64,000 nt of DNA from Candidatus Kuenenia stuttgartensis (GTDB taxonomy: Bacteria > Planctomycetota > Planctomycetia > Pirellulales > UBA1268). A model generated the notes under the pieces. It did no database searches, was not told where the DNA came from, and saw only the letters and a program-made list of their open reading frames with translations. Positions 2,599 to 17,810 of this stretch are shown piece by piece; position 1 is the stretch's first letter; each line of letters opens with the position of its first letter. The stretch spans positions 3,276 through 67,275 of the forward strand of contig CALQRA010000001.1 of NCBI GenBank assembly GCA_943332855.1, given 5' to 3'. Made by a program: the position numbers and the translations under genes.

Positions 2599-3885
2599 TC
2601 AGTCGATCTCGAGCCGGAGCGTGCCGTCGTCGTCGGCGATGACCTTCAGAAGCGGCGGCCGGTTTGGCTCGGGGTGGGCGCTGCTACCGCCGCTGGAGAG
2701 ATCGCTGCTGTCGACGACCTCGCCACCGGCGCGGGTGAGAAACTTCCGCAGCGTCTCGGTGTCGACCGTATCGGCGATGATGTGGACCGAGCCGTCGGCG
2801 AAAGCGAAGAGACCGACCCTGCCTTGACCGACCGGATGGATCGCACCGATCCCCGCCGGCTTCCCGATCCCGGGGAAGGCGTCGTCGAGGACGATGTCTT
2901 CCGGCTTCGTCCAGGGGATTTTCCGAGCGGGATCGACCGTGGCGAACAGGATCGTTCTCGAAAGCCCGTCGGTGATGCTCGCGAAGCCGACTTTCTTCGC
3001 GGTCTTCAGGCAGGCAGGGAAGTCATCGGCCGATGTCATCGTCACCGCGCCGGGCTGAAAGATCGCCGCCTCCCCGGTGATCGCCGCGTAGTCGGTGAGG
3101 GTATCGAGGGGGCCTTCGCGGGCCGGATCGCGGAACACCGCGGGCATCTTTTCGGCGACCGCCAAGTTCTTCGGCGAGTCCCATGGCTGGGAGAAGTCGT
3201 ACTGCTTGTACAACGCCATCTCATCGAGGAAAGGTAGGAGGAGGACGCGCCACGAGTGCCACGGCTTGCCGTCGGGTCCGATCACGGCCGCCGGCGGGAA
3301 ACAGCCGTAGGTGTCGTGGAAGTTGTGGAAGCCGAGAGCGAGTTGCTTGAGGTGGTTGCTCGATGCGGTGCGGCGGGCCGCAGCACGGGCCTTGGCAATC
3401 GGATTGAACGAGCCGAGGCCGTTGGCGAGCGGCTTGGCCTTGGCGACAAGGAGATCGGGGAGACTGCGGATCGCTTTCGTGGTGGCGGTGTCGACGGGCC
3501 GCTCACCGACCAGCCCCGTGAACGGTCGGCCGAGGACGGCGGGGCCTTCTTGAACGGCCGGGAGCGCACCGGGGCCAAACGTCGCCACGGCGACATTCCC
3601 TTCGAGAATCTCTGCGACCTTGACTCGGACAAGCGTGTCGAGAGGGCCTCCCTTCTTCGAAGCGACAACAAGCACGGCCTGCCCCTCGGCGGGGATCGAC
3701 AACATCGCCCCTTCGGCACGCTCGATCCGGACCTGGCGCGTCGTCGCGTCGACGGCGACGATCCGGTGCGTCGGCTCGGGGCTGAAGAGCGGATAGCTCA
3801 TGACGACGCGCTCTTCCGCGCTCGCCACGGCCACGAGCGCCAGAAAAAACAACAGTCCGTGAGCGACGGCGAGCGTCGAACGCAT
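2599..3885 (-). CDS. DUF1559 domain protein with Sec-type signal peptide and extra N-terminal domain (no prepilin N-terminus)
   Basis: ORF trimmed to ATG 3885, giving signal peptide MRSTLAVAHGLLFFLALVAVASA. The C-terminal ~260 aa has DUF1559 hallmarks (SSNHLKQLALGFHNFHDTYGCFPPA; WRVLLLPFLD; FADGSVH). Confidence 0.7.
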   Translation of the reverse strand: MRSTLAVAHGLLFFLALVAVASAEERVVMSYPLFSPEPTHRIVAVDATTRQVRIERAEGAMLSIPAEGQAVLVVASKKGGPLDTLVRVKVAEILEGNVAVATFGPGALPAVQEGPAVLGRPFTGLVGERPVDTATTKAIRSLPDLLVAKAKPLANGLGSFNPIAKARAAARRTASSNHLKQLALGFHNFHDTYGCFPPAAVIGPDGKPWHSWRVLLLPFLDEMALYKQYDFSQPWDSPKNLAVAEKMPAVFRDPAREGPLDTLTDYAAITGEAAIFQPGAVTMTSADDFPACLKTAKKVGFASITDGLSRTILFATVDPARKIPWTKPEDIVLDDAFPGIGKPAGIGAIHPVGQGRVGLFAFADGSVHIIADTVDTETLRKFLTRAGGEVVDSSDLSSGGSSAHPEPNRPPLLKVIADDDGTLRLEID

Positions 3886-4007: not shown

Positions 4008-7000
4008 TCACTTCTCCCACACAAAGATCTCCGACACGCCGCTGCGCGAGGCCCCCCGGTGGGTGAAGACAACGCGCACCTTCGCCGCCGTCACCGGCTT
4101 GAACGTTCCTTCGTTGACCCCGTTGCCGAGCGGCTGCTCGGGCGTGTGGACTTCGTCGTCGACGGGCTTCCAGGCCCCGTCCGCGAGGACCTCGACGTGA
4201 AACTGCTCGGGCGACTGGACGCCGCCCCGGTCGTCGTAGAGGGCCAGCTCGATCCGGGAGAAGGTCCGCGGGGCACCAAAATCGACCGCCAGCCAGTCGG
4301 TGGCGTTTGGGGATTCGTAGGCCGTCCAGCGGTTGTTGGGGTTTGTCTGATAGGAGACGATCCCGTCGATCGCCCGCTCGACCCGGTCATAGCGTGAGGT
4401 GTGCGAAGCGGTCGCCTTGGGGAAGTCGGGGGCGCCCGCGCCGCCGGCATTGAAGGCGAGGTTGCCGGCCGGCGCGGGGGCAGGCTCGAGCGGCAGAAGC
4501 GCTTCTCCCCATAGTTCGACTTCCGATAGCCCGACGCGCATCCCGGGGCGGGGTGTGAGCTCGATCCGCAGTTTTTGGAGGTTGCGCGGGGCGAAGTGGA
4601 TGTGGTTTGCCATGTGCCCCTCGGGATCCTGCGGCAGTTGCCTCGTGATCGGCAGCGGCTCCCAGTCGGTGCCGTTCCAGGTTTCAACAGCGATGGTCTT
4701 CGGCGCGCGAACGTCGGAGGGGAGGGTGTCGCGGCCCGGCACGGCGGCGTCGGCGGTGCCAGCGAGAATCCCGGGCTCGTCGTCGAGGAGGAAAAGCGCG
4801 AGCGTGTCGCCCCGGCGCGGAACCCCGAGATCGAGGACGAGCGATTCCGGCGCGCCGGCCGTGGCGCTCTCCCAGCGGTTTGGTGGCGACCGCAGATACC
4901 AAGCGACGCCGTCGGCGAGCGCTGCGGGGGACGTACCGGGGCGGATCGAGGTGGGAACGATGCGGGGGAAATAGGTGCCGTCGTTGTTGACCGCGACGTT
5001 GACCCGCGTCGGCACGATTCCCGGCTTCAGTCCCTCGTCAACAAGCCCCGCCGTGACCAGCGCCGCAGAGACCGGCGGGAGCGGCGCCGTCAGCCGCCCC
5101 ACCGTCGGCGATGACGCAATCACACGGCCATCGGCGAGGAGATGGAGACCGGGGCCGAGGCCGTAGCGCGAGCCGTCGCGATCCCACACCACCCCCACCT
5201 CACGCCCTCGGTAGATCAGCCGGTCGAGCCGCAGGTAATCCCATTCCGGGGGAAACAGCGGGCGGATTTCGAGCGTGTCGTCGGCACGGGGAATGAGGCC
5301 GACAAGCCCTGTGATCACGAGGTCGGCGTAGCCGGAATGGAAGTAGTGCTCGCTGTGATTGAAGGCATCGTGCCCTTCGAAGCTGCCGGTGTCGGGATGG
5401 CAGGCTTCGGCAAGGTACGGCCGCCCGGCCTTCCGGTGGGTGCGGGCATAGGTGTTGAGGAGCGCGACGTAGTCCTTGGCCGAGACCACCTCCTGGAGCC
5501 CCGGGCCGTTGTTGTCGAAGCCAGGAGAGCGGTACTGAAGAACGTTGGCGAGGGCCTTGAGCGTCTGGGTCGTGGCGTAGGGCCAGCTCTGGCCGCTCCA
5601 CCAGCAGCAGTGGGGCTGGAGGATGAAGAGCGGATCGTGCCGCTCGACGGTCGCGGGGCCGAAGGGCGCCTGGAAGAACTCCGGGTCGCCGAGGTATTTC
5701 CAGGCCTCTTCAAAACCCTTGCCGCGCGACGGCATGTCGAACTGCCAGGGGACGTAGCCGATCAGCTCGCGGCCATGCGGGCTGCCGGCGAAGCGGCCCG
5801 AATCGTAGATCCGGCTCCCGGCCGCGACAGAGGCGCCGTCGAGCGTTTCATCATCGCGGAAGGCGGCGAGGAAGAAACCGCGGCGCTCGTCCCACAAGCT
5901 CTCTTCCATCTTTTCCCGTAGCGCCTCCGCGGCGGCCCGGTGTTCAGCGGCCTTGGCGGGCTCCCCGAGGAGATCCTCCATCCGCGAAAGCGCCACGAGA
6001 TCGGCCCACTGGTAGGCGATGAAGCTTGGCCGATAGCTCGGCGCGCCGCGCAGAATGTCGGTCGTCTGGCGGCTGGCAATATTGAACTCCATCCCGTCGT
6101 CGTGTCCCACCTGCCAGTACAGCCCGGTCGACTCGACGAAGTGCCTGTCGCGCCAGGCTTGCGTGTTCGCTTCGAGGCCGGGAAGGATGTCGCCGGGGAA
6201 GACGGTCGTGACCGTGGCGGCGGGGTGGCCGGCAGCGCCGAGATGGAGGCGGGCGGGATGGACAAGATGGACGCCCCACACCGCGTCGGCGAGCCAGGTG
6301 GAATAGTTGCGCGGCTGGGCGCCGGGGGTGTTGACCCAGTATCGAGCGTAATCGCGGGCGACTCGTGGCGAGCGGAGCCAGCGGGCCTCGGCGAGCTGAT
6401 GGCCCGCGGGGCAGGAGATGGCCCCGTACGCGCCCGACCAAAACGGCCGGTCGAGAAACTCGGTGAACAGATAGCCGCTGTTCGGCGAGCCGTAGGTGAG
6501 ATGTTTGGTGAGGAGTTCCCAGCGGTACCACCAGGTCGTCACGATGTCGGCGTCGGGGCAGTCGAAGAGCGGAACGTTTTCCAGATACCACGCCTGATCG
6601 CATCGATCCCAGAACGTCTCCCGCTCCATGAGGATCGCCTGGGATCGCTCGGCCTTCTCGCTCCACTGGCTGGCGGGCTCGGCCTGGGCCCGGAGGGGAA
6701 GCGTGACCGTGATCATGACCACCAGCGCACCGATCCATGCCGGGATCGGGCCGATCGCCAGGGCTGCCCCCGGCGGCGGGCCGGCTTCGCTTGTCGCCGC
6801 GGCGGTGCCGCGCGGGGGGAGGTGATCATCGTCGGCAAGCGGCGCCGGGCCGCGGCCGCTGGAACGGACATCGGGAAGGAGGATCGCGCCGAGCGGCTGG
6901 AGGAGGCCGGCGACGAGGAACGTCGTCGGGGCGTCCAACCAATCACTCACCGGCCCGGCCAACTTAGAGCCCCAAACCGTGGCGAGGTTCATCAGCGCCA

Positions 7001-8111
7001 TCGAAGCGGTGAACTGCGTCGCGGCGACCGCCGGCGTCGAGACCCGCATGAAGAGGGCGAAGAGCGACACCGACAGGAACGCCAGGCAGGCTTCGTGGAT
7101 TCCAAACCATAGATAGATCGTCATCTCGTGCTCCCAGAGGGATGGAATGGCCGCGAGGAGGATCCAGGAGGCGGCGAGGATCGAATTGGCGGCGACGGCA
7201 GTGGTTTTGGGGCCGATGAAGGCAGCCAGGAAGCCGGCGGCGACCGCGGCGGCCAGGCCGAGGAGATTTCCAAAGCCGCCACTGACCTCGGCGAAGCGCG
7301 CCTCCGTCCAACCGAGGTGTTTGAACATCTGTACCGTCATCGTCACATAGAGCATCGCCGGAAGGATCTTCATGAGCACCGCCCCGACGCCCGTCCGCAG
7401 CGCCGCGGGGCGCACCATGGCGATCGCCAGTTGGGAGAGGAGAGCCACCGGCCCGAGACCTGGGGCGACGGTGGCGGCAGCCTCTGCAGATCTGGCCGGC
7501 CCGAAGAAGAACCGGTCCCCTGGCCGTTCGCGGATCGCGAAGACGGCGCCGAGGGTGACGGCCTGGATCGCGGCGAGGGCGAGAACGGCCGTGGGAAGGC
7601 CGTAGGTCGCCATCACGAGGCCGAGCCCCGCCCCGCCGAGCATCGTGCCGACATACGACGAGCCATACATCATCCCGCTGGCCCGCTCGCGCTGGTTCCC
7701 CTCGAGCATGTCGACGGCGAGGGCGTCGATCGCCACGTCCTGAAGGGCGACGAAGATGTTGTGGAGGAGGACGAGCCAGCCGAGGAGCGCGGTGTCGCCG
7801 CCGGCCCGCAGGAACAGGAGCGCCGTGACGATCATCATCGTCTGCGCGAGGATCAGCCACGGTCGTCGGCGGCCCAAGCCCCCGCACAGCCCGGAGTCGA
7901 CCACTGGCCCCCACAGCCACTTGAAGCTCCAGGGGAGAATGGCCATGGCGATGATGTTGCCGACGGCGTTCTCCTCGCCGCCGTGACTGGCCAGCCACGC
8001 TGCCAGGGCCACCGTCACAAAGCCGAAGGGGATTCCCTGGGCGACATAGATCGCGCAGCAAAAAACGAGTCGGAGAAGGGGCCTCGTGGCGAGGGTGACG
8101 GGGGTGTCCAT
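4008..8111 (-). CDS. fusion protein: AmpG-like MFS permease + extra helix + (alpha/alpha)6-type glycoside hydrolase-like domain + two F5/8 type C (discoidin) domains
   Basis: Continuous 1367-aa ORF. aa 1-412 has ~12 TM helices with WSFKWLWGPVVD, typical of AmpG-like MFS. aa 449-472 is a hydrophobic helix followed by RAQAEP. The middle part reads WYLENVPLFDCPD...HSEHYFHSGYADLVITGLVGL, like MGH1/GH63-type barrels (family uncertain). The C-terminus carries two discoidin-like modules (RWESATAG...LDLG; RWTAYESPNATDWLAVDFG). Confidence 0.7.
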   Translation of the reverse strand: MDTPVTLATRPLLRLVFCCAIYVAQGIPFGFVTVALAAWLASHGGEENAVGNIIAMAILPWSFKWLWGPVVDSGLCGGLGRRRPWLILAQTMMIVTALLFLRAGGDTALLGWLVLLHNIFVALQDVAIDALAVDMLEGNQRERASGMMYGSSYVGTMLGGAGLGLVMATYGLPTAVLALAAIQAVTLGAVFAIRERPGDRFFFGPARSAEAAATVAPGLGPVALLSQLAIAMVRPAALRTGVGAVLMKILPAMLYVTMTVQMFKHLGWTEARFAEVSGGFGNLLGLAAAVAAGFLAAFIGPKTTAVAANSILAASWILLAAIPSLWEHEMTIYLWFGIHEACLAFLSVSLFALFMRVSTPAVAATQFTASMALMNLATVWGSKLAGPVSDWLDAPTTFLVAGLLQPLGAILLPDVRSSGRGPAPLADDDHLPPRGTAAATSEAGPPPGAALAIGPIPAWIGALVVMITVTLPLRAQAEPASQWSEKAERSQAILMERETFWDRCDQAWYLENVPLFDCPDADIVTTWWYRWELLTKHLTYGSPNSGYLFTEFLDRPFWSGAYGAISCPAGHQLAEARWLRSPRVARDYARYWVNTPGAQPRNYSTWLADAVWGVHLVHPARLHLGAAGHPAATVTTVFPGDILPGLEANTQAWRDRHFVESTGLYWQVGHDDGMEFNIASRQTTDILRGAPSYRPSFIAYQWADLVALSRMEDLLGEPAKAAEHRAAAEALREKMEESLWDERRGFFLAAFRDDETLDGASVAAGSRIYDSGRFAGSPHGRELIGYVPWQFDMPSRGKGFEEAWKYLGDPEFFQAPFGPATVERHDPLFILQPHCCWWSGQSWPYATTQTLKALANVLQYRSPGFDNNGPGLQEVVSAKDYVALLNTYARTHRKAGRPYLAEACHPDTGSFEGHDAFNHSEHYFHSGYADLVITGLVGLIPRADDTLEIRPLFPPEWDYLRLDRLIYRGREVGVVWDRDGSRYGLGPGLHLLADGRVIASSPTVGRLTAPLPPVSAALVTAGLVDEGLKPGIVPTRVNVAVNNDGTYFPRIVPTSIRPGTSPAALADGVAWYLRSPPNRWESATAGAPESLVLDLGVPRRGDTLALFLLDDEPGILAGTADAAVPGRDTLPSDVRAPKTIAVETWNGTDWEPLPITRQLPQDPEGHMANHIHFAPRNLQKLRIELTPRPGMRVGLSEVELWGEALLPLEPAPAPAGNLAFNAGGAGAPDFPKATASHTSRYDRVERAIDGIVSYQTNPNNRWTAYESPNATDWLAVDFGAPRTFSRIELALYDDRGGVQSPEQFHVEVLADGAWKPVDDEVHTPEQPLGNGVNEGTFKPVTAAKVRVVFTHRGASRSGVSEIFVWEK

Positions 8112-9120: not shown

Positions 9121-10047
9121 TCACTCCGCGGACGTCGTCTCGCCACCGGCGCGGGTGGAGAGATCGACGAGAACTGCCGCGGCGTCGTAGCTGAAAAAAC
9201 GCACGGCCCCGTCGAGGAACGCGAAGTGCCCTCCGCCGCCGGGATGAAGGCTCCAGAAGTGGTTGGCGCTGCATTCGTCCTTCAGCCGCCCCGGTTGAAA
9301 CGGATAGACCGCATTGGCGCAGCGCCCGAAGGGATTCCTGTCAGTGCTCGCCGTGCCAACGGTGTGATCGAGGGCACCGTCGCCGAAGCCGACCCCCATC
9401 CCGGCATACCACCAGCCGAGATCGAATTGGGGTGACGGCGGCCGCTCGCCAGCCAGGAGCGTCCGCGACACGCCGTCGATGACATCGGCAAGTCGCGTCG
9501 CAGACCCGGAATAGAGGACGCCGTCGTGGAGCGTCGAGTCGCGGCCCGACGACCCGAGGTAGGAGCTGAGCCCGGCGATCGTTCGATACCGGGGGACCGG
9601 CTGCGCCGAGCTTGCCCGCGGGTCTTCCGGGCAGGCAAACAGCGCGATCGGCTTGGAGAAGGTCGGGTGGGTGGCCATGTCGAAAGGATCTTGGCTCGCC
9701 CGGTATTCCGCCGCCACCAGGTTGGCCGTCGCCGTCTCCTCGAGGAACGGCAGGAGTGAAACGAGCCAGCCACGATACGGCGTGGCCGAGGTGCCCAGGT
9801 CGGTGCCGGCCGGAAGCCGGCCGCGGGCGTCGACGTGGGAGTGGGCGGCCAGCGCGATCTGCCGGAGCTGGTTTTGGCATCCGGTCCGCCGGGCTGCACC
9901 GCGCGCCGCCTGGACGGCGGGGAGGAGGAGCGCGAGGAGGATCGCCACAATGCCGATGACGACGAGGAGCTCGACGAGCGTGAACGCCCGCGTGGAGACG
10001 CGGGCTCGGCGCCCGGATGCCCACGATCTGCCGTCATGCGCCGCCAT
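9121..10047 (-). CDS. DUF1559 (H-X9-DG) protein with prepilin-type N-terminal cleavage/methylation domain
   Basis: AFTLVELLVVIGIVAILLALLLPAVQAARGAARRTGCQNQLRQIALAAHSH is the canonical planctomycetal pseudopilin-like N-terminus. The C-terminus reads FLDGAVRF. The start could also be ATG 10080. Confidence 0.85.
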   Translation of the reverse strand: MAAHDGRSWASGRRARVSTRAFTLVELLVVIGIVAILLALLLPAVQAARGAARRTGCQNQLRQIALAAHSHVDARGRLPAGTDLGTSATPYRGWLVSLLPFLEETATANLVAAEYRASQDPFDMATHPTFSKPIALFACPEDPRASSAQPVPRYRTIAGLSSYLGSSGRDSTLHDGVLYSGSATRLADVIDGVSRTLLAGERPPSPQFDLGWWYAGMGVGFGDGALDHTVGTASTDRNPFGRCANAVYPFQPGRLKDECSANHFWSLHPGGGGHFAFLDGAVRFFSYDAAAVLVDLSTRAGGETTSAE

Positions 10048-10152
10048 GGCGGTCCTCCCGGCCGGGATTTCCCTGATCAATGCCCCCCGAGCTGCTTCGG
10101 GGGGGTGGCCGCATCAGATCATACCAAACGAGTGAGGACGTCCGTCGGGCCC

Positions 10153-11289
10153 TCACCGCGGCCGACGGGGCCGGCCGGCGTGCTGCCTGGGAACGATGCC
10201 GTCGCCGGACTCGATGGCGAACTTCGTCATCGTGTTGATGTGAACACCGAGGAGGGTCGCCGCCCGGCCCATGTGGCCGCTCGTGACGGCGAGTGCCTGC
10301 CGGACAGCGATCCGGCGCAGTTCGTCGAGGTTCAAGACGGGAAGCTCCACTTCGAATGAATGGTTGGGTCCACTCCCGGCTGGCAGGGCGAGCGCGGTTG
10401 GCACGTTCAGGGCGGCTGGCGGCACGAAGTGCATCGCAGGCATCGCTCCCGGCGGATCGGCGGGAAGGTCGGGCACCGTACCGAACACATAAACGCGTTC
10501 GACGAACTGGGCCAACTGGCGGATGTTGCCCGGCCAGCGGTAGCGGAGCATCCGGGCGAGCGTGGGGGCGTCGGGAACCCAGGGCTCCCTGTCCAACCGG
10601 GCCGCCAGCATCTCGGAGAAGTGGCTGATCAAGAGGGGAAGATCGCTCGCCCTGTCGCGGAGGGCGGGCACATGGATCTCGATCGTGTTGAGCCGGAAAA
10701 AAAGGTCGGGGCGAAACGCACCCCGATCGACCTCCAGCCCGATCTCGCGATTCGTCGCCGCGAGAATCTGGACCTCAAACGGAAATACCTCGGTCGAACC
10801 GACTGGCGTCACCTCCCGCTGCTGGATCACCCGCAGGAGCTTGGGCTGCACCTCGAGCGACAGCTCGCCGATCTCGTCGAGAAACACAACGCCGCCGTCG
10901 CCAGCGCGGAAGACGCCGAGAGCCGTGCCAACGGCCCCGGTGAACGCCCCCTTAACGTGGCCAAACAACTGGCTTTCCGCCAACGTCGTCGTCAGGGCCG
11001 CGCAGTTGATCGCCACGAACGGCTGGTCGCGGCGGGGTCCGGAGGCATGGATCGCCCGCGCGACCGCCTCCTTGCCAGAGCCTGTCTCGCCAGTCAGCAG
11101 CACGCAGCTGTCAAACTGGGTGGCTCGGCTGATCTCGAACTCGAGTTGTGCCGCCGCGGCGGAGGTGCCCGTAATCCGGGGAGCGGGAGTCGACCGCCGT
11201 GCCGCCTTGAAGGGCATGCCAACAGCCACTCCGGCTGAAACCACGGCTCCCGCAGCGGGGCTTGTCGCGCCGTCATTTCGCAGTGGCAT
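10153..11289 (-). CDS. sigma-54-dependent transcriptional activator (AAA+ EBP + C-terminal HTH) with no N-terminal sensory/receiver domain
   Basis: Walker A LLTGETGSGKE, the sigma-54 contact loop GHVKGAFTGA, Walker B VVFLDEIGEL, WPGNIRQL, and a Fis-type HTH (GHMGRAATLLGVHINT). Only ~45 aa precede the AAA+ core. Confidence 0.85.
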   Translation of the reverse strand: MPLRNDGATSPAAGAVVSAGVAVGMPFKAARRSTPAPRITGTSAAAAQLEFEISRATQFDSCVLLTGETGSGKEAVARAIHASGPRRDQPFVAINCAALTTTLAESQLFGHVKGAFTGAVGTALGVFRAGDGGVVFLDEIGELSLEVQPKLLRVIQQREVTPVGSTEVFPFEVQILAATNREIGLEVDRGAFRPDLFFRLNTIEIHVPALRDRASDLPLLISHFSEMLAARLDREPWVPDAPTLARMLRYRWPGNIRQLAQFVERVYVFGTVPDLPADPPGAMPAMHFVPPAALNVPTALALPAGSGPNHSFEVELPVLNLDELRRIAVRQALAVTSGHMGRAATLLGVHINTMTKFAIESGDGIVPRQHAGRPRRPR

Positions 11290-11562
11290 ATGTGCCGATC
11301 TCCAGCCCCCCGAACCAATTCCCCGCTCCTGTAAATTGTGGCTGGAAGAATTGTCAACGTTCTCGGTCCGACCGGGGGGGCTCGGGATGGCTCCATGAGC
11401 GAGATGGCCCCTCCCCCCGATCCCACCACCACCACTGGAACGTGGGGCTGCTTACGCCTGCCGGCGTTCACTTCGACGCGGCCGAAGGATTCCTCGCTCA
11501 GCGACGAGTCGCCCTCGCGCAGCGTCGACAGCCGCGACGCAACCGACCGGCTTGGGCGGGAG

Positions 11563-11608
11563 GCAAAAAGAAACCGGGCCTGAGCACCTTGCGATGACCG
11601 GCCCGGTT
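11563..11608 (-). terminator. candidate rho-independent terminator after the PEP-CTERM gene
   Basis: On the minus strand: AACCGGGCC (11608-11600), a 19-nt loop, GGCCCGGTT (11580-11572), then TCTTTTTG. It lies 30 nt past the stop at 11638. The loop is long, so strength is uncertain. Confidence 0.4.
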
Positions 11609-11637
11609 GTGAATCAGCGATCAACACGCCCACTCGA

Positions 11638-13902
11638 TCAAGCCACGACCTTGGCCCGCCGGCGCCGCTGCTCGATCAACGCGACCACCCCGGCGATGAG
11701 AGAGAGGGCGCTTGAGCCAGTGGCGGGGTCGATCTCGGGAACGCTGTTGGTCGTGAACCGCAGCTGACCGGTCAGCTCGCTGAAGGTGAGTTGCTGGCTC
11801 CCGAACAGAGCCGTCCACACGCCATCCAAACCTGAGAAGGTGAGTCCCCCGTAGCTCCCGCTCCCGGTACTGCTGACGGAGCCAAAGCGACCGAGCGTCG
11901 AGCCCGTGAAGCCGAACAGGTCGAACGTCGTCCCGTCGGCGAAGGTCGTCGTGTTGGCGAAATCGAGATCGAGCGTGCCGCCGTAGCCGAGGCCGCCGGC
12001 GGTCGAGATCACGAGTTTGTCGTAGGCGGTGCCGGCCGTGCCGGCGAGATTGCCGGCGCCAATGATCTGCATGAGCGTCGTGCTGCCGGCTCGGAGGTCG
12101 AGCGAGCCGACGGTCAGCAAGCCTGGGCTGTTGCCCGGGGAGAGGATGCCGTCGACAATCACGGCCCCTCCGATGGTTCCCGAGCCGCCGAGCGTTGCCC
12201 CGTTGGCCACCGTCACAGCGCCGGTCGCCCCCGCCTGATTCCCATTGATGATCAGGGTGCCTGCATTGACGTTGGTGGTGCCTAAGTAGACGTTTGCAGC
12301 ATTCAGGACGGTGGTGCCGCTACCGGCCTGCGTGAATCCCCCCTTCCCCGTGAGGGGTCCGGAGAAAAAGTCGGTACCCTGGGTCACCGTGTCAGACTGC
12401 TTCACGATGAACCGGGCGTTGGAACTGGCCCCGCCGCCGATGTTGATGGCGCTGTTCGTCGGCAGCGAACCGGTCGTGCCGCCATCGCCGAGTTGGAGCG
12501 AGCCAACCTGGACGTCCACGGTGCCAGTGAAATCGGGATTGCTGCCCGCCACGATCACGGTGGGAACGTCGGAGGCCTTGGCATTGATATCGAGCGAGGT
12601 CAGGCCGGCCCCCAAGGTCCCGGAGATGAGCGTGACTCCGTTGCCGGAGAACGTGATCGGACTGCTTGAAGCGGTGATCGTGTTGCTCAACGTCATCGTG
12701 CCCGACGTGACGAAGATTCGCGAGCTCGTGACCGCCGTCACGGGGCCGGAATAGGTGTTGTTGCCGCTGACGTTGGTGAGGGACTCGCCATTGAGCGTCA
12801 GCAGGCCGCCGCCCACGTCGAATCCGCCCTGCAGTTCCAGGGAGCCTCCCGCAGTGGTCACCGGCGACGTTCCGAGCGCCGACGTGGCGTTGGCAACAAT
12901 CTTGCCCAGGGCGATGGTGGTCGCACCGCTGTAGCTGCCGCTCCCGGATAGGGTCAACGGGCCCGAGCCGCGCTTGGCGATGCCGCCGGTGCCGAAGATG
13001 CCGCCGAGGACCTCGTGGCCGCCTGCACCCGTGTAGTCCAAGGTGTTGCCCTGCAGATTGATCGCCGTGCCACTGCCCGGACCAATCTTCAAAACGTTGC
13101 CGCCTCCAGAGAGCACCGTCGAGTTTGCGGCAAGCGTCACGATGCCCCCCCAAGTGGCTGTACCCGAAGCAATCCGCAGCGCGCCTTCCGACGTGCTTTC
13201 GCCGGTGCCGCTGAGGGTCAACCGTTCACCGCTGACAGTGACGAGGTTGTTGATCCGCACTTGGCCGCCCGTGGATACGATCGTGGCTCCGTCCGTGGTC
13301 CCCAAGGCATTGTTCGCGGCAACCGTAAGTCTGCCCGTGACAGTGGTATCCCCTGCGTACGTGTTATTGCCACCGAGCGTCAGGTATCCAAGGCCCGACT
13401 TCGTGAGCGACCGGCTGCCACCGGATTCGGAAATCGGCCCGCTGATCGACAGTTGACCTCCCACGTTGACGGTCAGGTTGTCGGCGAGTGTCACCGGCGT
13501 CGAAACCGTATCTTGGATCGTTCCGAGTTCAGTCAGAGCGACGCCGCTGCCGCCATTATTGAACGTCAAGCCGGCCCCACCACTCGCCGCAAGCGTGAAC
13601 GCATGGGTGTTGTTGGAGTCGCCGATGTTCAGCGCGCCCACGGTGCGGGACGTGGTGTCGATCGTGACGGTGCGAGCGGCGGTGATGTTGTTGGTGAGCC
13701 CGATAACATCTCCTGCGGCGTTCCCCGGCACAGCAGCGGGATTCCAGTTGGAGCCGAGGCTCCAGTTGCCGGAGGCGTCGACATTCCAGAATCCGCTCTG
13801 GGCGAAGGCCCGCCCTGGCGAAAGGGCCAGAAGTCCGACTGCGAGAGTCGCGCTGATCCCCACTCCCCGAACCAGCGACCTGGTGATCGACGTTGTCAGC
13901 AT
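11638..13902 (-). CDS. autotransporter-associated beta-strand repeat protein with PEP-CTERM-like sorting tail
   Basis: ORF trimmed to ATG 13902 (signal ...LAVGLLALSPGRAFAQ). Many G-rich beta-helix repeats (LTLSG.NTYSG.TT...G.L). The C-terminus VPEIDPATGSSALSLIAGVVALIEQRRRRA matches the PEP-CTERM pattern (PE-P, helix, basic cluster). Confidence 0.7.
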   Translation of the reverse strand: MLTTSITRSLVRGVGISATLAVGLLALSPGRAFAQSGFWNVDASGNWSLGSNWNPAAVPGNAAGDVIGLTNNITAARTVTIDTTSRTVGALNIGDSNNTHAFTLAASGGAGLTFNNGGSGVALTELGTIQDTVSTPVTLADNLTVNVGGQLSISGPISESGGSRSLTKSGLGYLTLGGNNTYAGDTTVTGRLTVAANNALGTTDGATIVSTGGQVRINNLVTVSGERLTLSGTGESTSEGALRIASGTATWGGIVTLAANSTVLSGGGNVLKIGPGSGTAINLQGNTLDYTGAGGHEVLGGIFGTGGIAKRGSGPLTLSGSGSYSGATTIALGKIVANATSALGTSPVTTAGGSLELQGGFDVGGGLLTLNGESLTNVSGNNTYSGPVTAVTSSRIFVTSGTMTLSNTITASSSPITFSGNGVTLISGTLGAGLTSLDINAKASDVPTVIVAGSNPDFTGTVDVQVGSLQLGDGGTTGSLPTNSAINIGGGASSNARFIVKQSDTVTQGTDFFSGPLTGKGGFTQAGSGTTVLNAANVYLGTTNVNAGTLIINGNQAGATGAVTVANGATLGGSGTIGGAVIVDGILSPGNSPGLLTVGSLDLRAGSTTLMQIIGAGNLAGTAGTAYDKLVISTAGGLGYGGTLDLDFANTTTFADGTTFDLFGFTGSTLGRFGSVSSTGSGSYGGLTFSGLDGVWTALFGSQQLTFSELTGQLRFTTNSVPEIDPATGSSALSLIAGVVALIEQRRRRAKVVA

Positions 13903-13976
13903 CAGAAGCTCCGCTTCCAAAAGTCGTCCGTGGCTTACGTTCCCCGGCCCCAAATCAACATCTGCCCAAATGCATC

Positions 13977-13993
13977 TGCAAATCGCGTTCCGG
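13977..13993 (-). promoter_or_regulatory. candidate sigma-54 (-24/-12) promoter upstream of the PEP-CTERM gene
   Basis: The minus strand reads CCGGAACGCGATTTGCA. GG and GC are separated by exactly 10 nt as in TGGCAC-N5-TTGCA. The -12 TTGCA is perfect; the -24 matches 4/6. It lies ~75 nt upstream of ATG 13902. Confidence 0.25.
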
Positions 13994-14030
13994 AGCCCGT
14001 CTCAACGGTCTGCGATCAAGATTCCGCACG

Positions 14031-14069
14031 AAAACCACTCCTTGGCTTCTCGAAGTGCGAAGTGGATTT
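14031..14069. promoter_or_regulatory. imperfect inverted repeat, possible upstream activator site
   Basis: AAAACCACT (14031-14039) and AGTGGATTT (14061-14069) form an 8/9 palindrome with a 21-nt spacer. It lies 40-90 nt upstream of the candidate sigma-54 promoter. Confidence 0.2.
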
Positions 14070-14206
14070 CACAAAAAAATGGATATTTTCACGCTGCGAG
14101 TGAGTTTCGTGTCACTGAAATTATGAAACTCGCGCCTGGGGTGGCGACCTGAGAAGGTTGAGACGGTCGACGGCACTTTCACAACGGATCGGGTCGATGC
14201 TCCCGA

Positions 14207-16303
14207 TCACTTCGTAGCCATCACCTCGACGCCGTCCCAGTCGACCGGGGGCGGGGAGGCGGCGTAGGCGACGGCACGCTCGCGGAGGATCGTGGCTGCG
14301 GTGTCGTCGGGACGGAGGCGGAGCGATTCGTCGAAGTGCTCTGCGGCGCGGATGAAGTCGCGCGCGAAGTAGGCGTCGAGGCCCGCTTCATATTCAGCCG
14401 CTGCGGCAAGAATGTTTCCGGGGACGGAGCCGACGAGGCCGAGCGCCTCGTGGATCTCTGTCGGCAGTCGCTTCCCTTTGACGGCGATCCGATCGAGGCG
14501 GCGCCAGGCGATTGAATTGCCGGCGAGCCGGCGGGTGGCGTCGCTGGCGATGACTGCCGTGCCATACTCGTTGTTCACGCGCTCGAGCCGGGCGGCGAGA
14601 TTCACCCCATCGCCGATGGCGGTGTAGTCGAAGCGGTCGGGGGCGCCGAAGTTGCCCACGATCACCCGGTCGGTGTGGATCCCGAAGCGTGTCCGGAGCC
14701 GCTCGGCCCGGGGCATGGTGGCGATTGCATCGCGGCAGCGGATCGCCGCGATCACGGCCCGCTCGGCATGGTCGGCGACGGGGCGGGGGGCGTTCCAAAA
14801 GGCCATCATCCCATCGCCGATGTACTTGTCGACGGTCCCCGATTCGTCGGTCACGATCCCGGCGATTCCGGCGAGATAGTCGCCGAGGACCTGCGCGGTG
14901 TCGGCCACGCCGATCTCCTCGGAGAAGCCGGTGAAACCGTGGATGTCGCTGAAGAGGATCGAGAGCTCCTCGGAGCGGCCGCCGAGGACGGGCTCGGTGC
15001 CGTCGGCCAGCAGTTCCTGCACGAGCTTGAGCGGAACGTATTTTCCGAAGCCCCGCAGCCCCGATTTCAGGCTGCCGAAGACGCCGTTGACGTCGGCGAT
15101 CTCCTCAAAGACGGTGTGGGGGAGGGGACGGTCGGAGAAGTCGAAGCGCCGCAGATGCTCGGTCTCCACGGCGATCGCATGGAGCGGTCCGGCGATCGAC
15201 TTGGCGAGGAGTGCGGCGCCGGCGAGAAACAGGGCCAGGATTCCCAGACTGATGAGGATACTGCGGGTGATGTCGCGCTGGATCGTGCCGAGGAAATCGT
15301 CCTCCGCCACGACCGCGCCGGCGACCCATTCACGCCCATGAACGGCGATCGGGCGGACGACAGCCAGCTGGCGGGCACCGTCGACGACATAGGCGATCGA
15401 GGCTGTCGTGTTGGGCTTGAGCGTTTGAAGCGTTGTCTGGAACTCGGGGTTGTGGGCGAGAGCCCGGAGGACCGGCGGATCGGTATCGGCCAGCCGGGGG
15501 AGCGTCACGTTTCCACCGTCGGCACGGATCGGCGCCGCCCCGGCGGCGGCCAGCGTCCCCTGGGCGGGATCGAGGACGAAGCCCCGGATCGGCCGGCCGG
15601 CCACCCGGAGCCGCGCGAGCATCTCGGCCAGATCTGTGAGCGTGATCGCCACCGCGACGACCCCGGCATCGGCCCCGTCTTGGGCCTGAAGGGAGACCGC
15701 AGCCGTGACGACGATCGTGTCGTCGGGAAAGTGGGCGTAGGCGTCGGTGAGGAACACGCCGTTGGCGTCTCGCGCGCCGGCGTACCAGGGGCGCGTGCGA
15801 GGGTCGTAGGAGTCATCGACCTCGAGGCGCTCGAGGATCTCGGTGCGCGGGGCACCGGGGGCGCGGCGGCTGATGATCGTGCGCGGGGCGGTCGCCTCGG
15901 GGCCCGAGACGAGACGACGCTGTGACTCGAGGCTCCCGTCATCACGGCGGGTAATCCGGACCCATCCCCCGTCGGGAAGACCGAGTTGCACGTACGCCAG
16001 CGCCCGCTCGCTCGACAGGAGTGCAGAGCCGACGACATCGAGCGCGTTGGGGCGGAGCTCGGCGGGGACATCCCCGATCACGGCGGCAGCCACTTCCGCC
16101 GCCGAAGCGGCGCTGTCGAGCATGTCGCGCGTCTGCTCGGTGACCTGGTGCGCGACCGGATCGAGGAGATCGCGGGTAAACGTCCGCACGGTCCTGGCGG
16201 ACGACAGCCAATTGAGGAGGAGAAGGAGCGCGGCCAAGCCCGTGGTGATCAGGAGCACCCCGACGAAGATCGTCACCCGGAGCTTGATCTTTTGGGGAAA
16301 CAT
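14207..16303 (-). CDS. membrane-bound class III adenylate/guanylate cyclase with periplasmic Cache-like sensor, HAMP and C-terminal helical (TPR-like) extension
   Basis: Two TM helices flank a ~300-aa extracytoplasmic region. The cyclase core reads LSILFSDIHGFTGFSE...DKYIGDGMMAFWNAP...GIHTDRVIVGNFG...YTAIGDGVNLAARLE. Confidence 0.85.
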   Translation of the reverse strand: MFPQKIKLRVTIFVGVLLITTGLAALLLLLNWLSSARTVRTFTRDLLDPVAHQVTEQTRDMLDSAASAAEVAAAVIGDVPAELRPNALDVVGSALLSSERALAYVQLGLPDGGWVRITRRDDGSLESQRRLVSGPEATAPRTIISRRAPGAPRTEILERLEVDDSYDPRTRPWYAGARDANGVFLTDAYAHFPDDTIVVTAAVSLQAQDGADAGVVAVAITLTDLAEMLARLRVAGRPIRGFVLDPAQGTLAAAGAAPIRADGGNVTLPRLADTDPPVLRALAHNPEFQTTLQTLKPNTTASIAYVVDGARQLAVVRPIAVHGREWVAGAVVAEDDFLGTIQRDITRSILISLGILALFLAGAALLAKSIAGPLHAIAVETEHLRRFDFSDRPLPHTVFEEIADVNGVFGSLKSGLRGFGKYVPLKLVQELLADGTEPVLGGRSEELSILFSDIHGFTGFSEEIGVADTAQVLGDYLAGIAGIVTDESGTVDKYIGDGMMAFWNAPRPVADHAERAVIAAIRCRDAIATMPRAERLRTRFGIHTDRVIVGNFGAPDRFDYTAIGDGVNLAARLERVNNEYGTAVIASDATRRLAGNSIAWRRLDRIAVKGKRLPTEIHEALGLVGSVPGNILAAAAEYEAGLDAYFARDFIRAAEHFDESLRLRPDDTAATILRERAVAYAASPPPVDWDGVEVMATK

Positions 16304-17806: not shown

Positions 17807-17810
17807 AACG

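What the first reader, a model, noticed from the sequence alone, without database searches (positions are those of the whole stretch)
4008..8111. MFS permease fused in one ORF to a glycoside hydrolase and two discoidin domains via a retained signal-peptide-like 13th helix
aa 1-412 form a 12-TM AmpG-like permease. aa 413-448 are a Pro/Gly/Ala linker. aa 449-472 (AALAIGPIPAWIGALVVMITVTLPL) followed by RAQA-EP look like a former Sec signal peptide with an AxA site (nt 6675-6875). An (alpha/alpha)6-type hydrolase and two F5/8-type C modules follow. An odd-numbered extra helix would place the hydrolase in the periplasm while it stays tethered to the permease. That would physically couple glycan cleavage to product import. 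I do not know this as a described architecture.
Basis: partly seen in the sequence, partly recalled or inferred. Interest (0 to 1): 0.55.

Follow-up and report, generated by a model that had tools for sequence, protein, structure and literature searches.

The report
Permease fused to periplasmic sugar-cleaving enzyme
A freshwater planctomycete encodes a nutrient importer and a secreted sugar-cleaving enzyme as a single protein, joined through the enzyme's old export signal, and gene neighbourhoods of the unfused relatives suggest the pair scavenges sugar-decorated hydroxyproline from plant or algal cell-wall proteins.

Summary
Window 4008-8111 (-) is one 1367-aa ORF made of five parts:
- a 12-helix AmpG/PAT-like MFS permease;
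- a disordered linker;
- a 13th hydrophobic helix ending in RAQA|EP;
- a GH142-type (alpha/alpha)6 hydrolase (E 1e-72 to BT_1020);
- two CBM32/discoidin modules.

It is not an assembly artefact. Eleven independent assemblies carry the same uninterrupted ORF, at 64-95% identity. The linker has only in-frame indels.

Sixty-seven stand-alone homologues of the enzyme half (51-66% identity) start with classic Sec signal peptides. These align with helix 13, so the "retained signal peptide" idea is supported. Trees for both halves indicate a single fusion event in one Pirellulales-like clade.

New here: stand-alone relatives of the permease sit inside hydroxyproline-catabolism clusters. One sits at the end of an L-sugar operon, exactly where a fused orthologue sits. 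Two stand-alone enzymes lie directly upstream of hydroxyproline genes.

Best reading: periplasmic de-glycosylation of hydroxyproline glycosides, coupled to import.

Unresolved: whether signal peptidase cuts at the intact AxA site, and what the substrate is.

Verdict: a new architecture built from known parts, of moderate interest.

The parts
4008..8111 (-). Whole fused gene, 1367 aa plus stop
   Evidence: ORF list and translation. GC3 is 0.85. Full-length orthologues at 64-95% identity. Uninterrupted ORFs in 11 independent loci.
6876..8111 (-). 12-TM MFS permease domain (aa 1-412), AmpG/PAT-like
   Evidence: Pfam MFS_1, Acatn and BT1. TIGR00901 at E 3.9e-28, below its cut-off. AF2 gives 12 helices with pLDDT mostly above 85. 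Top Foldseek hit is AmpG 8zgz, E 4e-10. Mean pairwise identity among fused orthologues is 79%.
7860..7898 (-). MFS motif A loop between TM2 and TM3 (aa 72-84, DSGLCGGLGRRRP)
   Evidence: D72, G80, R81, R82, R83 and P84 are invariant in alignment A1. This loop is cytoplasmic in MFS proteins (established knowledge), which fixes the N-in orientation.
6768..6875 (-). Cytoplasmic linker (aa 413-448), rich in Pro/Gly/Ala, ending in a conserved PPPG
   Evidence: pLDDT about 30. Identity 58%, with in-frame indels only. P446 and P447 are invariant. The first ~20 residues correspond in position and length to the cytoplasmic tail of stand-alone MFS relatives.
6693..6767 (-). 13th hydrophobic helix (aa 449-473), a former signal-peptide h-region
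   Evidence: Hydropathy peak 2.11. AF2 helix at 456-470. Aligns with the signal peptides of stand-alone homologues. Only 39% identity among orthologues, while hydrophobicity is kept.
6681..6692 (-). RAQA: signal-peptidase-I-type c-region (A at -3 and -1), followed by E478-P479
   Evidence: Read from the sequence. Comparable AxA, AxS or AxG motifs occur in nearly all fused orthologues and in stand-alone signal peptides.
5088..6593 (-). GH142-type catalytic region (aa 507-1008): (alpha/alpha)6 barrel plus GH65C-like beta-sandwich
   Evidence: phmmer E 1.1e-72 to 5mqr_A residues 652-1102. That chain is BT_1020, a GH142 beta-L-arabinofuranosidase (PMC7263609). PF22422 at E 5e-67 and PF03633. Identity among orthologues is 83%.
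6459..6461 (-). Codon of Glu551 (TEFL motif), aligned with the putative catalytic or anchor Glu of BT_1020
   Evidence: In the alignment, E551 pairs with the Glu at chain index 694 of 5mqr_A. PMC7263609 names Glu694 as the conserved residue next to the bound beta-L-Araf. E551 is invariant. A numbering offset of one residue between paper and chain index cannot be excluded.
4503..4982 (-). CBM32/discoidin-like module 1 (aa 1044-1203)
   Evidence: No direct Pfam hit. hhalign to module 2 gives probability 99.5%, E 4e-22. Foldseek matches two-domain CBM32 and discoidin structures. The homologue P0029 scores F5_F8_type_C at the equivalent position.
4011..4436 (-). CBM32/discoidin-like module 2 (aa 1226-1367)
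   Evidence: PF00754 at E 7.5e-15 and PF22633 at E 1.5e-13. Similar to BgaA-type beta-galactosidase CBMs 8q2h and 4cua.
2599..3885 (-). Conserved downstream gene: secreted DUF1559 (SBP_bac_10) protein. The likely start is M46 of the listed ORF.
   Evidence: Pfam PF07596 at E 1e-34. The signal-peptide-like N-terminus MRSTLAVAHGLLFFLALVAVASA starts at M46. Found directly downstream of the fused gene in 9 fused loci at 51-91% identity, and in L090/L091. Whether it takes part in the function is unknown.

Best explanation
One gene encodes an inner-membrane importer and a periplasmic glycosidase as a single polypeptide.

Shown:
- The N-terminal 412 residues form a 12-helix AmpG/PAT-like MFS permease.
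- A ~35-residue disordered linker follows on the predicted cytoplasmic side.
- A 13th hydrophobic helix comes next. It is the retained signal peptide of an ancestrally secreted enzyme.
- The rest is a GH142-type (alpha/alpha)6 hydrolase with two CBM32/discoidin sugar-binding modules.
- The fusion arose once, in one Pirellulales-like planctomycete clade. A gene for the secreted enzyme was joined to the 3' end of the permease gene.

Inferred:
- The Sec machinery inserts the permease. Helix 13 then threads the ~890-residue enzyme part into the periplasm.
- There the enzyme removes sugars from hydroxyproline-linked glycans of plant or algal hydroxyproline-rich glycoproteins. By homology these sugars are beta-L-arabinofuranosides.
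- The adjoining permease imports the freed hydroxyproline, Hyp peptide or trimmed Hyp glycoside, which feeds the hydroxyproline pathway to alpha-ketoglutarate.

My probabilities for the separate steps:
- Real single-polypeptide fusion with a periplasmic enzyme part: about 0.9.
- Helix 13 derived from the signal peptide: about 0.9.
- Role in scavenging glycosylated hydroxyproline: about 0.45.
- Enzyme stays tethered rather than being cut off: about 0.55.
For: Architecture.

Conservation of the fusion:
- 14 clusters of full-length proteins.
- 11 independent loci with intact ORFs.
- Both halves are under strong constraint (identity 79% and 83%), while the linker (58%) and helix 13 (39%) drift with in-frame indels only.

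Signal-peptide origin:
- 67 stand-alone homologues match query residues from about 462 or 494 to 1367.
- Their N-termini are n-h-c signal peptides ending in AxA just before the conserved ETFWDN motif.
- Divergent fused orthologues still show an Arg-rich n-region, and one shows a Met, in front of helix 13.

No independent translation of the enzyme: there is no ATG, GTG or TTG between aa 405 and 463.

Topology: K/R count is 15 in predicted cytoplasmic loops and 3 in periplasmic loops.

Single origin: the fused clade is monophyletic for the MFS half and for the GH half. The unfused L012 is sister to the GH clade.

Positional orthology: L087 has gyrB-UxaE-IolO-like-RbsD/FucU-AKR-lactonase-ADH-MFS. 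L089 has the same six upstream genes (66-85% identity), followed by the fused MFS-GH gene.

Link to hydroxyproline:
- Stand-alone MFS relatives in L081, L082, L083 (52-57% identity) and L092/L093 (39%) lie in or next to clusters of 4-hydroxyproline epimerase, a DHDPS-family deaminase, a three-gene D-amino-acid dehydrogenase, 2,5-dioxovalerate dehydrogenase and Xaa-Pro aminopeptidase.
- In L087 the peptidase and DHDPS genes are 6.5 kb away.
- The stand-alone GH in L071 is followed on the same strand by DHDPS, epimerase, DAO, Fer2_4 and Pyr_redox_2 genes. In L044 a DHDPS gene starts 72 nt after the GH.

Enzyme chemistry:
- E 1e-72 to the GH142 beta-L-arabinofuranosidase BT_1020.
- Residues lining its beta-L-Araf site map to E551, W558, G673, W838 and H925, all invariant.
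- Beta-L-arabinofuranosides are the sugars on hydroxyproline in extensin-type glycoproteins (abstracts of PMC7263609 and PMC10850190).
Against: - No experiment of any kind; all function is inferred from homology and gene neighbourhood in other genomes.
- The window itself has no hydroxyproline genes.
- Only 3 of 67 stand-alone GH loci have hydroxyproline genes nearby, and most show no conserved neighbourhood at all.
- The positional orthologue context (L087/L089) is an L-galactose/L-fucose-type sugar operon, not an arabinose or hydroxyproline operon.
- The GH142 catalytic mechanism is not defined, and only one member has been characterised, so specificity at 33% identity is uncertain.
- Helix 13 has low AlphaFold confidence and no predicted packing on the permease.
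- The intact AxA site argues that the tether may be cut.
Confidence: 0.55

Rival explanations
1. Polyprotein reading. The fused precursor is inserted as described. Signal peptidase I then cuts after RAQA. This releases a soluble periplasmic GH142 enzyme and leaves a 13-helix permease that carries the old signal peptide. Under this reading the fusion gives only co-expression, 1:1 stoichiometry and co-localised insertion. It gives no lasting physical coupling.
For: - The c-region is canonical: P at -6, A at -3, A at -1, E at +1.
- Small residues at -3/-1 recur in nearly all fused orthologues, although the segment is only 39% identical.
- In divergent orthologues the uncharged stretch is only 17-21 residues and is preceded by Arg residues. 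This is a complete n-h-c signal peptide.
- The AF2 helix is only 15 residues long.
- A related fusion, P0152, has a lipobox-like AAMTALGC at the same place. This hints that internal signals in this family may be processed.
Against: - In most orthologues the uncharged stretch has grown to 31 residues and includes a conserved PPPG lead-in that stand-alone signal peptides lack. Long hydrophobic segments tend to act as uncleaved anchors (established knowledge from signal-anchor studies).
- Ala-rich sequence is common in a 68% GC genome, so AxA could persist by composition alone.
- The fusion has been kept down to 64% identity, which suggests it is more than neutral.
Confidence: 0.35
2. Sugar-import reading. 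The hydrolase releases an L-galactose/L-fucose-type sugar or a short oligosaccharide from an algal or plant glycan. The permease imports that sugar for the adjacent oxidative L-sugar pathway. Hydroxyproline plays no part.
For: - In L087 the stand-alone permease is the last gene of a tightly spaced operon. In L089 the fused gene occupies the same position.
- That operon encodes an L-fucono-1,5-lactonase-like enzyme (E 4e-96), an IolO-like epimerase, a Zn-dependent dehydrogenase, an aldo-keto reductase, an RbsD/FucU mutarotase and UxaE.
- This set resembles the L-glucose/L-galactose pathway of the verrucomicrobium Luteolibacter (PMC12632266).
- In L085 a relative of the permease lies next to a GH43 gene.
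Against: - Four other distinct permease contexts, counting the duplicate pair L092/L093 once, lie in hydroxyproline clusters. These include an outgroup clade at 39% identity.
- Stand-alone GH genes are never next to this sugar operon, but twice lie next to hydroxyproline genes.
- The family's characterised members carry muropeptides and acetyl-CoA rather than free sugars.
- The only characterised GH142 is a beta-L-arabinofuranosidase, and L-arabinose would not enter an L-galactose-type pathway (inference from sugar stereochemistry).
Confidence: 0.2
3. Cell-wall recycling reading. The permease is a true AmpG that imports anhydromuropeptides, and the hydrolase trims peptidoglycan-derived or other envelope glycans.
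For: AmpG is the best sequence and fold match among solved structures. Source databases name the relatives 'AmpG'.
Against: - The score is 98 bits against a subfamily cut-off of 350, with 20% identity to AmpG.
- No peptidoglycan-recycling genes occur in any of the nine contexts examined.
- GH142 and CBM32 have no known link to peptidoglycan.
Confidence: 0.03
4. Artefact reading. Two adjacent genes were merged by a sequencing or assembly error, such as a lost stop codon or a frameshift in the GC-rich linker.
For: The linker is low-complexity and GC-rich. Raw reads could not be inspected.
Against: - Eleven loci from different studies and assemblers all have an open frame through the junction.
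- Several independent indels in the linker are all multiples of three.
- No start codon exists for a separate enzyme gene.
Confidence: 0.01

Closest known systems
AmpG / PAT family of MFS permeases (TC 2.A.1.25; E. coli AmpG structures 8zgz, 9c3f; human SLC33A1)
   Same: 12-helix MFS fold with the GRRRP motif A. AmpG is the best sequence hit (E 5e-7) and the best fold hit (E 4e-10). The family's characterised substrates are sugar-peptide conjugates, which fits an imported glyco-amino acid.
   Different: Only 20% identical, and well below the AmpG model cut-off. Gene contexts are hydroxyproline or L-sugar catabolism, not cell-wall recycling. It carries a 13th helix and a ~890-residue periplasmic extension, which the stand-alone 410-445-aa relatives lack.
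BT_1020 C-terminal domain, GH142 beta-L-arabinofuranosidase of Bacteroides thetaiotaomicron (PDB 5mqr/5mqs)
   Same: Homologous over ~500 residues (E 1e-72), covering the (alpha/alpha)6 barrel and the following beta-sandwich. The residues around the bound beta-L-Araf are conserved or conservatively replaced.
   Different: BT_1020 is a soluble enzyme with an N-terminal second catalytic domain and acts on rhamnogalacturonan-II. Here the domain is joined to a permease, carries two CBM32 modules, and its relatives are linked to hydroxyproline genes. Specificity is untested.
Bifidobacterium longum HypBA1/HypBA2 system for hydroxyproline-linked beta-L-arabino-oligosaccharides (GH121/GH127 plus ABC importer)
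   Same: Same proposed logic: a surface-anchored beta-L-arabinosidase with F5/8 type C modules works next to a dedicated importer on extensin-type glycans (PMC7263609). GH121 is the closest structural relative of GH142.
   Different: There the enzyme and transporter are separate proteins, the transporter is an ABC system, and the imported product is the sugar (beta-Ara2). Here the two are one polypeptide, the transporter is an MFS, and the context points to the amino-acid part.
Transporter fusions with extracytoplasmic partner domains (for example ABC importers with fused substrate-binding domains) and cytoplasmic transporter-enzyme fusions such as SulP-carbonic anhydrase or LplT-Aas. These are recalled from memory and were not checked here.
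   Same: Same general principle: a transporter is covalently linked to the protein that delivers or consumes its substrate.
   Different: I know of none that joins an MFS permease to a periplasmic glycoside hydrolase through a retained signal peptide. Full-text searches found none.

Membership tests
Major facilitator superfamily | Twelve transmembrane helices in two six-helix bundles | tested here: met
   AF2 helices 11-42, 47-72, 83-103, 107-133, 139-170, 172-192 | 235-264, 270-298, 301-327, 329-357, 360-391, 394-410. Foldseek matches MFS structures only.
Major facilitator superfamily | Motif A (G-x-x-x-D-x-x-G-R-R) in the cytoplasmic TM2-TM3 loop | tested here: met
   D72...G80-R81-R82-R83-P84, invariant in all orthologues.
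AmpG muropeptide permease (TIGR00901 / PRK11010) | Score above the curated family cut-off | tested here: not met
   98.2 bits against a cut-off of 350. The equivalog models score 31-43 bits against cut-offs of 656-756. The protein is a relative within the PAT family, not an AmpG orthologue.
AmpG muropeptide permease | Genomic or functional link to peptidoglycan recycling | tested here: not met
   No such genes in the window's neighbourhood or in eight contexts of relatives.
Glycoside hydrolase family 142 | Significant sequence similarity to the founding member BT_1020 (C-terminal domain) over the catalytic module | tested here: met
   phmmer E 1.1e-72; aa 507-1008 align to 5mqr_A 652-1102. 5mqr is identified as GH142 in PMC7263609. 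A dbCAN/CAZy assignment was not available.
Glycoside hydrolase family 142 | Conserved Glu next to the -1 sugar, and the residues lining the site | tested here: met
   E551, W558 (Tyr in BT_1020), G673, W838 and H925 align with the listed BT_1020 residues and are invariant. The paper's numbering is offset by one from the chain index for four of the five residues.
Glycoside hydrolase family 142 | Beta-L-arabinofuranosidase activity | not testable with these tools
   Needs an enzyme assay.
CBM32 / F5/8 type C (discoidin) domain | Profile match above the gathering threshold, and a beta-sandwich fold | tested here: met
   Module 2: PF00754 at 55.6 bits against 28.2. Module 1: homologous to module 2 (hhalign 99.5%). 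The two-domain model matches CBM32 pairs and neuropilin b1b2.
Sec-type (signal peptidase I) signal peptide, as the origin of helix 13 | n-h-c organisation, small residues at -3/-1, and positional homology to N-terminal signal peptides of homologues | tested here: met
   Stand-alone homologues carry signal peptides at the aligned position. Fused orthologues keep the h-region and AxA-type c-region, and some keep the Arg-rich n-region. No SignalP-type predictor was available.
Sec-type signal peptide | Actual cleavage by signal peptidase I | not testable with these tools
   Needs protein-level data.
Bacterial trans-4-hydroxy-L-proline catabolic cluster (context of relatives, not of the window) | Co-located epimerase, D-Hyp dehydrogenase, Pyr4H2C deaminase and alpha-KGSA dehydrogenase genes | tested here: inconclusive
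   The Pfam composition fits in L081-L083, L092/L093 and L071. The best NCBIfam names are 4-hydroxyproline epimerase (345 bits against a cut-off of 450) and 2,5-dioxovalerate dehydrogenase (122 bits against 750), both below cut-off. No such genes occur in the window.

The most novel reading that the evidence does not exclude
This is the best-conserved example of a recurrent evolutionary trick in one family of planctomycete AmpG/PAT-like permeases. The permease captures a periplasmic enzyme that works on its substrate and turns the enzyme's signal peptide into an extra membrane helix. The result is a single-polypeptide 'digest-and-import' machine on the outer face of the inner membrane.

Other members of the same permease family are fused to:
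- a PF06439 hydrolase-like domain, through a 13th helix;
- FG-GAP repeats, through an internal lipobox-like signal;
- an M28 peptidase at the N-terminus, through an extra helix.

The PF06439 case mirrors a neighbourhood in which that domain is encoded next to the permease and hydroxyproline genes.

If the enzyme stays tethered, the GH142 fusion would de-arabinosylate hydroxyproline glycosides at the mouth of their importer. It would also assign a function to two widespread, uncharacterised planctomycete protein families.
Probability: 0.35. Interest if true: 0.7.

Novelty: new variant of a known kind. Interest (0 to 1): 0.56.

Why it matters
The fusion acts as a 'Rosetta stone'. It ties together two protein families that are common in Planctomycetota and have no assigned role. 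One is a GH142-like secreted hydrolase, with 394 relatives among species-representative genomes. The other is a 410-445-aa AmpG-like permease. Both can be connected to hydroxyproline catabolism.

This gives a concrete, testable hypothesis for how freshwater planctomycetes harvest carbon and nitrogen from hydroxyproline-rich glycoproteins of plants and green algae.

Mechanistically, it would be an unusual case of a secondary transporter covalently coupled to a periplasmic glycosidase. It is also a clean natural example of a signal peptide being converted into a transmembrane tether, or into an internal cleavage site of a bacterial polyprotein. Either outcome is informative for membrane-protein biogenesis and for engineering enzyme-transporter fusions.

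Tried and rejected
1. Split but adjacent state. tblastn with the permease half found no MFS homologue within +/-8 kb of any of the 67 stand-alone GH genes. The closest unfused GH (L012, 66% identity) has only ~200 nt of upstream sequence, and no permease tail appears in any frame.

2. Conserved neighbourhood of stand-alone GH genes. Clustering 273 flanking ORFs gave only the ubiquitous planctomycete families (DUF1501-like, PSCyt/PSD) and nothing consistent.

3. Internal translation start for a separate secreted enzyme. Rejected. The only start-like codons lie inside the hydrophobic core, at V464 and M466.

4. Pfam on module 1 alone gave no hit. The question was settled by a profile-profile comparison and a fold search instead.

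5. Hydroxyproline genes or L-sugar operon genes in the window or in fused loci. None found, apart from the L089 operon.

6. DUF1559 as a general partner. It is conserved downstream only within the fused clade. Elsewhere its occurrence is scattered, as expected for a hugely expanded family.

7. Literature precedent for MFS-glycoside hydrolase fusions, or for bacterial internal signal-peptide cleavage in permeases. Nothing relevant turned up in three searches. A laminarin-PUL paper only proposes functional coupling between separate proteins.

8. True-AmpG and artefact readings. Rejected, as set out under the rival explanations.

Full report
**1. The observation**

The minus strand of window 4008-8111 carries a single 1367-codon ORF with an ATG start. 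Its third-position GC is 0.85, like the neighbouring genes.

Profile searches give these domains:
- MFS_1/Acatn/BT1 at the N-terminus;
- PF22422 (MGH1-like glycoside hydrolase) at aa 562-920, E 5e-67;
- a GH65C-type beta-sandwich at aa 944-997;
- F5_F8_type_C at aa 1233-1355.

NCBIfam's best match to the N-terminal part is the AmpG subfamily model (E 3.9e-28). The score is 98 bits against a cut-off of 350.

An AlphaFold2 model of aa 1-560, built on 16 sequences, shows twelve confident helices between residues 11 and 410. An amphipathic interdomain helix lies at 221-232. Residues 411-455 are disordered (pLDDT about 30), and a short helix follows at 456-470. A hydropathy scan finds the same 13th hydrophobic segment at 447-477.

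It is nevertheless a diverged copy of the C-terminal one (hhalign probability 99.5%, E 4e-22, 28% identity). A model of aa 1010-1367 matches two-domain CBM32, neuropilin b1b2 and factor V/VIII C1C2 structures (Foldseek E about 1e-11).

**2. Is the fusion real?**

A word-indexed search of 5.8 billion proteins returned 14 clusters of full-length proteins with the same architecture. They are 1336-1399 aa long, 64-95% identical, and come from Planctomycetota metagenome bins.

A scan of one genome per species found the fused gene in eleven to thirteen species-level genomes labelled Pirellulales, Planctomycetaceae or Planctomycetia. Eleven loci from different projects have uninterrupted ORFs of 1336-1382 codons.

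Mean pairwise identity among the orthologues, by region:

| Region | Identity |
|---|---|
| Permease | 79% |
| Linker | 58% |
| Helix 13 | 39% |
| Hydrolase | 83% |

The linker and helix 13 have several indels, all in frame. Both halves are thus under purifying selection, and the reading frame across a fast-evolving junction is maintained. A missed stop or frameshift is excluded for practical purposes, although raw reads could not be examined.

**3. Origin of helix 13**

The same genome scan found 394 relatives of the enzyme half. Of the 80 best loci, 67 encode a stand-alone protein matching query residues from about 462 or 494 to 1367, at 51-66% identity. They come from Gemmataceae, Pirellulaceae, Schlesneria and other planctomycetes.

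Reading their 5' ends shows classic Sec signal peptides. One example is MRTVPLSSAALAVCLLAVPTGAA|EPLLAPQPLLDRETFWDN. The fused protein reads ...AWIGALVVMITVTLPLRAQA|EPASQWSEKAERSQAILMERETFWD. Helix 13 with its RAQA tail therefore occupies exactly the position of the signal peptide.

In the more divergent fused orthologues the segment still looks like a whole signal peptide. It has an Arg-rich n-region, 17-21 uncharged residues and an AxA-type end. In P0015 a Met is still visible (..RGRRMKGLPAGAVVLVALLAAAARG|EEP).

The first half of the linker corresponds in length and position to the ~20-residue cytoplasmic tail of stand-alone permeases.

The simplest history is loss of the permease stop codon, with read-through into a downstream gene for a secreted enzyme.

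Neighbour-joining trees place all fused sequences in one clade for each half. A clade of stand-alone permeases and the stand-alone enzyme L012 are the respective sisters. This fits one fusion event followed by vertical descent.

An exhaustive HMMER search of 1.84 billion cluster representatives found only one 50%-identity cluster that has both halves.

**4. Topology and fate of the enzyme part**

MFS proteins have both termini in the cytoplasm (established knowledge). Here the invariant GRRRP motif A lies in the TM2-TM3 loop. Lys+Arg counts are 15 in the predicted cytoplasmic loops and 3 in the periplasmic ones. An odd 13th helix must therefore deliver what follows to the periplasm, which is where all unfused relatives are sent by their signal peptides.

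There is no ATG, GTG or TTG between residues 405 and 463. The enzyme therefore cannot be made and exported on its own; its export depends on the fused polypeptide.

What cannot be decided computationally is whether signal peptidase I then cuts after RAQA.

For cleavage:
- The c-region is canonical (P-6, A-3, A-1).
- Similar motifs persist in nearly all orthologues.

For a permanent tether:
- In most orthologues the uncharged stretch has lengthened to 31 residues.
- It has an invariant PPPG lead-in that the ancestral signal peptides lack.
- The fusion has been kept over considerable divergence.

I put tethering at about 0.55 and cleavage at about 0.35.

**5. What the enzyme is**

The enzyme half aligns over ~500 residues with the C-terminal domain of Bacteroides thetaiotaomicron BT_1020 (PDB 5mqr; E 1.1e-72). 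This is the founding GH142 beta-L-arabinofuranosidase, and the (alpha/alpha)6 barrel of GH121 HypBA2 is its closest structural relative (PMC7263609).

The Glu that contacts the bound beta-L-arabinofuranose, and the four other residues listed around it, align with E551, W558, G673, W838 and H925. All five are invariant among the fused orthologues. The paper's numbering is one higher than the chain index for four of them, so the Glu assignment carries a small uncertainty.

The C-terminal modules resemble the galactose-binding CBMs of BgaA-type beta-galactosidases.

**6. What the permease is linked to**

The closest stand-alone permeases are 410-445 aa long and 52-57% identical. I examined their genomic contexts:

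- **L081 and L083.** The permease follows, within 15-18 nt, an Xaa-Pro aminopeptidase gene. Both sit in a cluster with a Pro_racemase-family gene (best NCBIfam name 4-hydroxyproline epimerase, E 4e-103), a DHDPS-family gene and a DAO + Fer2_4 + Pyr_redox_2 trio. L081 also has an aldehyde dehydrogenase whose best name is 2,5-dioxovalerate dehydrogenase.
- **L082.** The same genes flank the permease on the other side.
- **L092/L093.** A more distant relative (39% identity) lies divergently next to DHDPS, Pro_racemase and DAO genes.

This gene set is the composition of the bacterial trans-4-hydroxy-L-proline pathway. The epimerase is its first step according to the abstract of PMC4364671. The remaining assignments rest on my knowledge of the Pseudomonas/Azospirillum pathway.

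- **L087.** The permease ends a tightly spaced operon: UxaE, an IolO-like epimerase, an RbsD/FucU mutarotase, an aldo-keto reductase, an L-fucono-1,5-lactonase-like enzyme and a Zn-dependent dehydrogenase. The peptidase and DHDPS genes lie 6.5 kb away.
- **L089.** This locus holds the most divergent fused orthologue. It has the same six upstream genes at 66-85% identity, with the fused gene where L087 has the plain permease.

This pair shows the before and after states of the fusion at one chromosomal position.

**7. The enzyme's own link to hydroxyproline**

Most stand-alone enzyme genes have no conserved neighbours. There are three exceptions:
- In L071 the gene is followed on the same strand by DHDPS, epimerase, DAO, Fer2_4 and Pyr_redox_2 genes.
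- In L044 a DHDPS-family gene starts 72 nt downstream.
- In L040 the Xaa-Pro peptidase lies 4.5 kb away.

With +/-8 kb examined in 67 genomes of several megabases, about 0.15 such coincidences would be expected by chance. This is my rough estimate, not a formal test.

**8. Synthesis**

Three independent links form a triangle:
- permease to hydroxyproline cluster;
- enzyme to hydroxyproline cluster;
- permease to enzyme, through the fusion.

Beta-L-arabinofuranosides are the sugars carried by hydroxyproline in extensin-type glycoproteins. Bifidobacteria use a surface GH121 enzyme with F5/8 type C modules, plus a dedicated importer, to harvest them (abstracts of PMC7263609 and PMC10850190).

I therefore propose that the fused protein trims hydroxyproline-bound glycans in the periplasm. 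The permease then imports the product (free hydroxyproline, a Hyp peptide or a trimmed Hyp glycoside) for the peptidase and the hydroxyproline pathway. The family's characterised members carry sugar-peptide conjugates (AmpG) and acetyl-CoA (SLC33A1).

The L-sugar operon in L087/L089 does not fit this neatly. It supports a rival in which the permease imports an L-galactose/L-fucose-type sugar (compare PMC12632266). I give that rival about 0.2.

A true AmpG role in cell-wall recycling is disfavoured by the low family score and by every gene context examined.

**9. A wider pattern**

The same permease family contains other fusions:
- P0163: permease, 13th helix ending APAAPA, then a PF06439 '3-keto-disaccharide hydrolase' domain.
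- P0152: permease, an internal lipobox-like AAMTALGC, then FG-GAP repeats.
- P0016: M28 peptidase, an extra helix, then the permease.

They are supported by 2, 3 and at least 9 independent sequences or contigs respectively. In L092/L093 a stand-alone PF06439 gene lies beside the permease and the hydroxyproline genes, which echoes the P0163 fusion.

Capture of periplasmic partners through an extra helix may thus be a recurring habit of this family.

**10. Comparison with what is known, and verdict**

All the parts belong to known families: PAT/AmpG-like MFS, GH142 and CBM32. Transporter-partner fusions are also a known principle. I found no description of an MFS permease joined to a periplasmic glycoside hydrolase, or of a signal peptide reused as the joint.

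I rate it a new variant of a known kind. It is confined to one clade, so its direct biological reach is modest. Its value lies in the functional inference it allows for two widespread uncharacterised planctomycete families. It is also a natural test case for tether versus polyprotein processing. Interest: 0.56.

Noticed in passing
window 2599-3885 (-): A DUF1559 (Pfam SBP_bac_10) protein with a Sec-type signal peptide, rather than the usual prepilin motif, lies directly downstream of the fused gene. The pairing is conserved in 9 or more fused loci at 51-91% identity. The listed ORF start (4020, GTG) is probably too far upstream; M46 is the likely start. A DUF1559 gene also follows the hydroxyproline cluster in L071 (16054-17103).
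   Followed up: partly
proteins P0163, P0152, P0016: Other members of the same permease family are fused to predicted periplasmic domains through an extra hydrophobic segment. The partners are a PF06439 hydrolase-like domain, FG-GAP repeats behind an internal lipobox-like AAMTALGC, and an N-terminal M28 peptidase.
   Followed up: partly
L087 2434-9299 and L089 4544-14011: A planctomycete operon encodes UxaE, an IolO-like epimerase, RbsD/FucU, an aldo-keto reductase, an L-fucono-1,5-lactonase-like enzyme and a Zn-dependent dehydrogenase, directly after gyrB. It resembles the L-glucose/L-galactose pathway recently described in the verrucomicrobium Luteolibacter.
   Followed up: partly
L071 11633-13915 (+): In this locus the hydroxyproline epimerase-like and DAO-like genes appear as one 760-codon ORF. 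The epimerase match is split into two pieces. This could be a fusion or a sequencing error.
   Followed up: no
L004, L010, L013, L053 (record titles): Bins carrying 75-95% identical copies of this planctomycete gene, or its stand-alone relative, are titled 'Candidatus Kuenenia stuttgartiensis' or 'uncultured Chitinophaga sp.'. These are probably wrong taxonomic labels on the public records.
   Followed up: no
protein P0017: A 3856-aa protein carries a GH142-like module at residues 3094-3762 (40% identity). Other relatives (P0029, P0033) combine the module with cadherin-like and PKD domains.
   Followed up: no
window 9121-16303 (-) and 16520-24073 (+): The surroundings of the fused gene are: a second DUF1559 protein with a prepilin N-methylation motif (9121-10080); a sigma-54 activator (10153-11289); a PATR-repeat protein (11638-13953); a Cache-domain adenylate/guanylate cyclase (14207-16303); and an HlyD-type adaptor (16520-17806), followed by two ~1100-aa ORFs that were not profiled. 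None has an obvious link to the fused gene.
   Followed up: partly
L085/L086 3943-9233: One stand-alone relative of the permease (P0217) lies downstream of a 1160-aa GH43 + PATR protein, at a position that shares downstream genes with the hydroxyproline-cluster locus L082. This is another glycosidase-permease neighbourhood.
   Followed up: no
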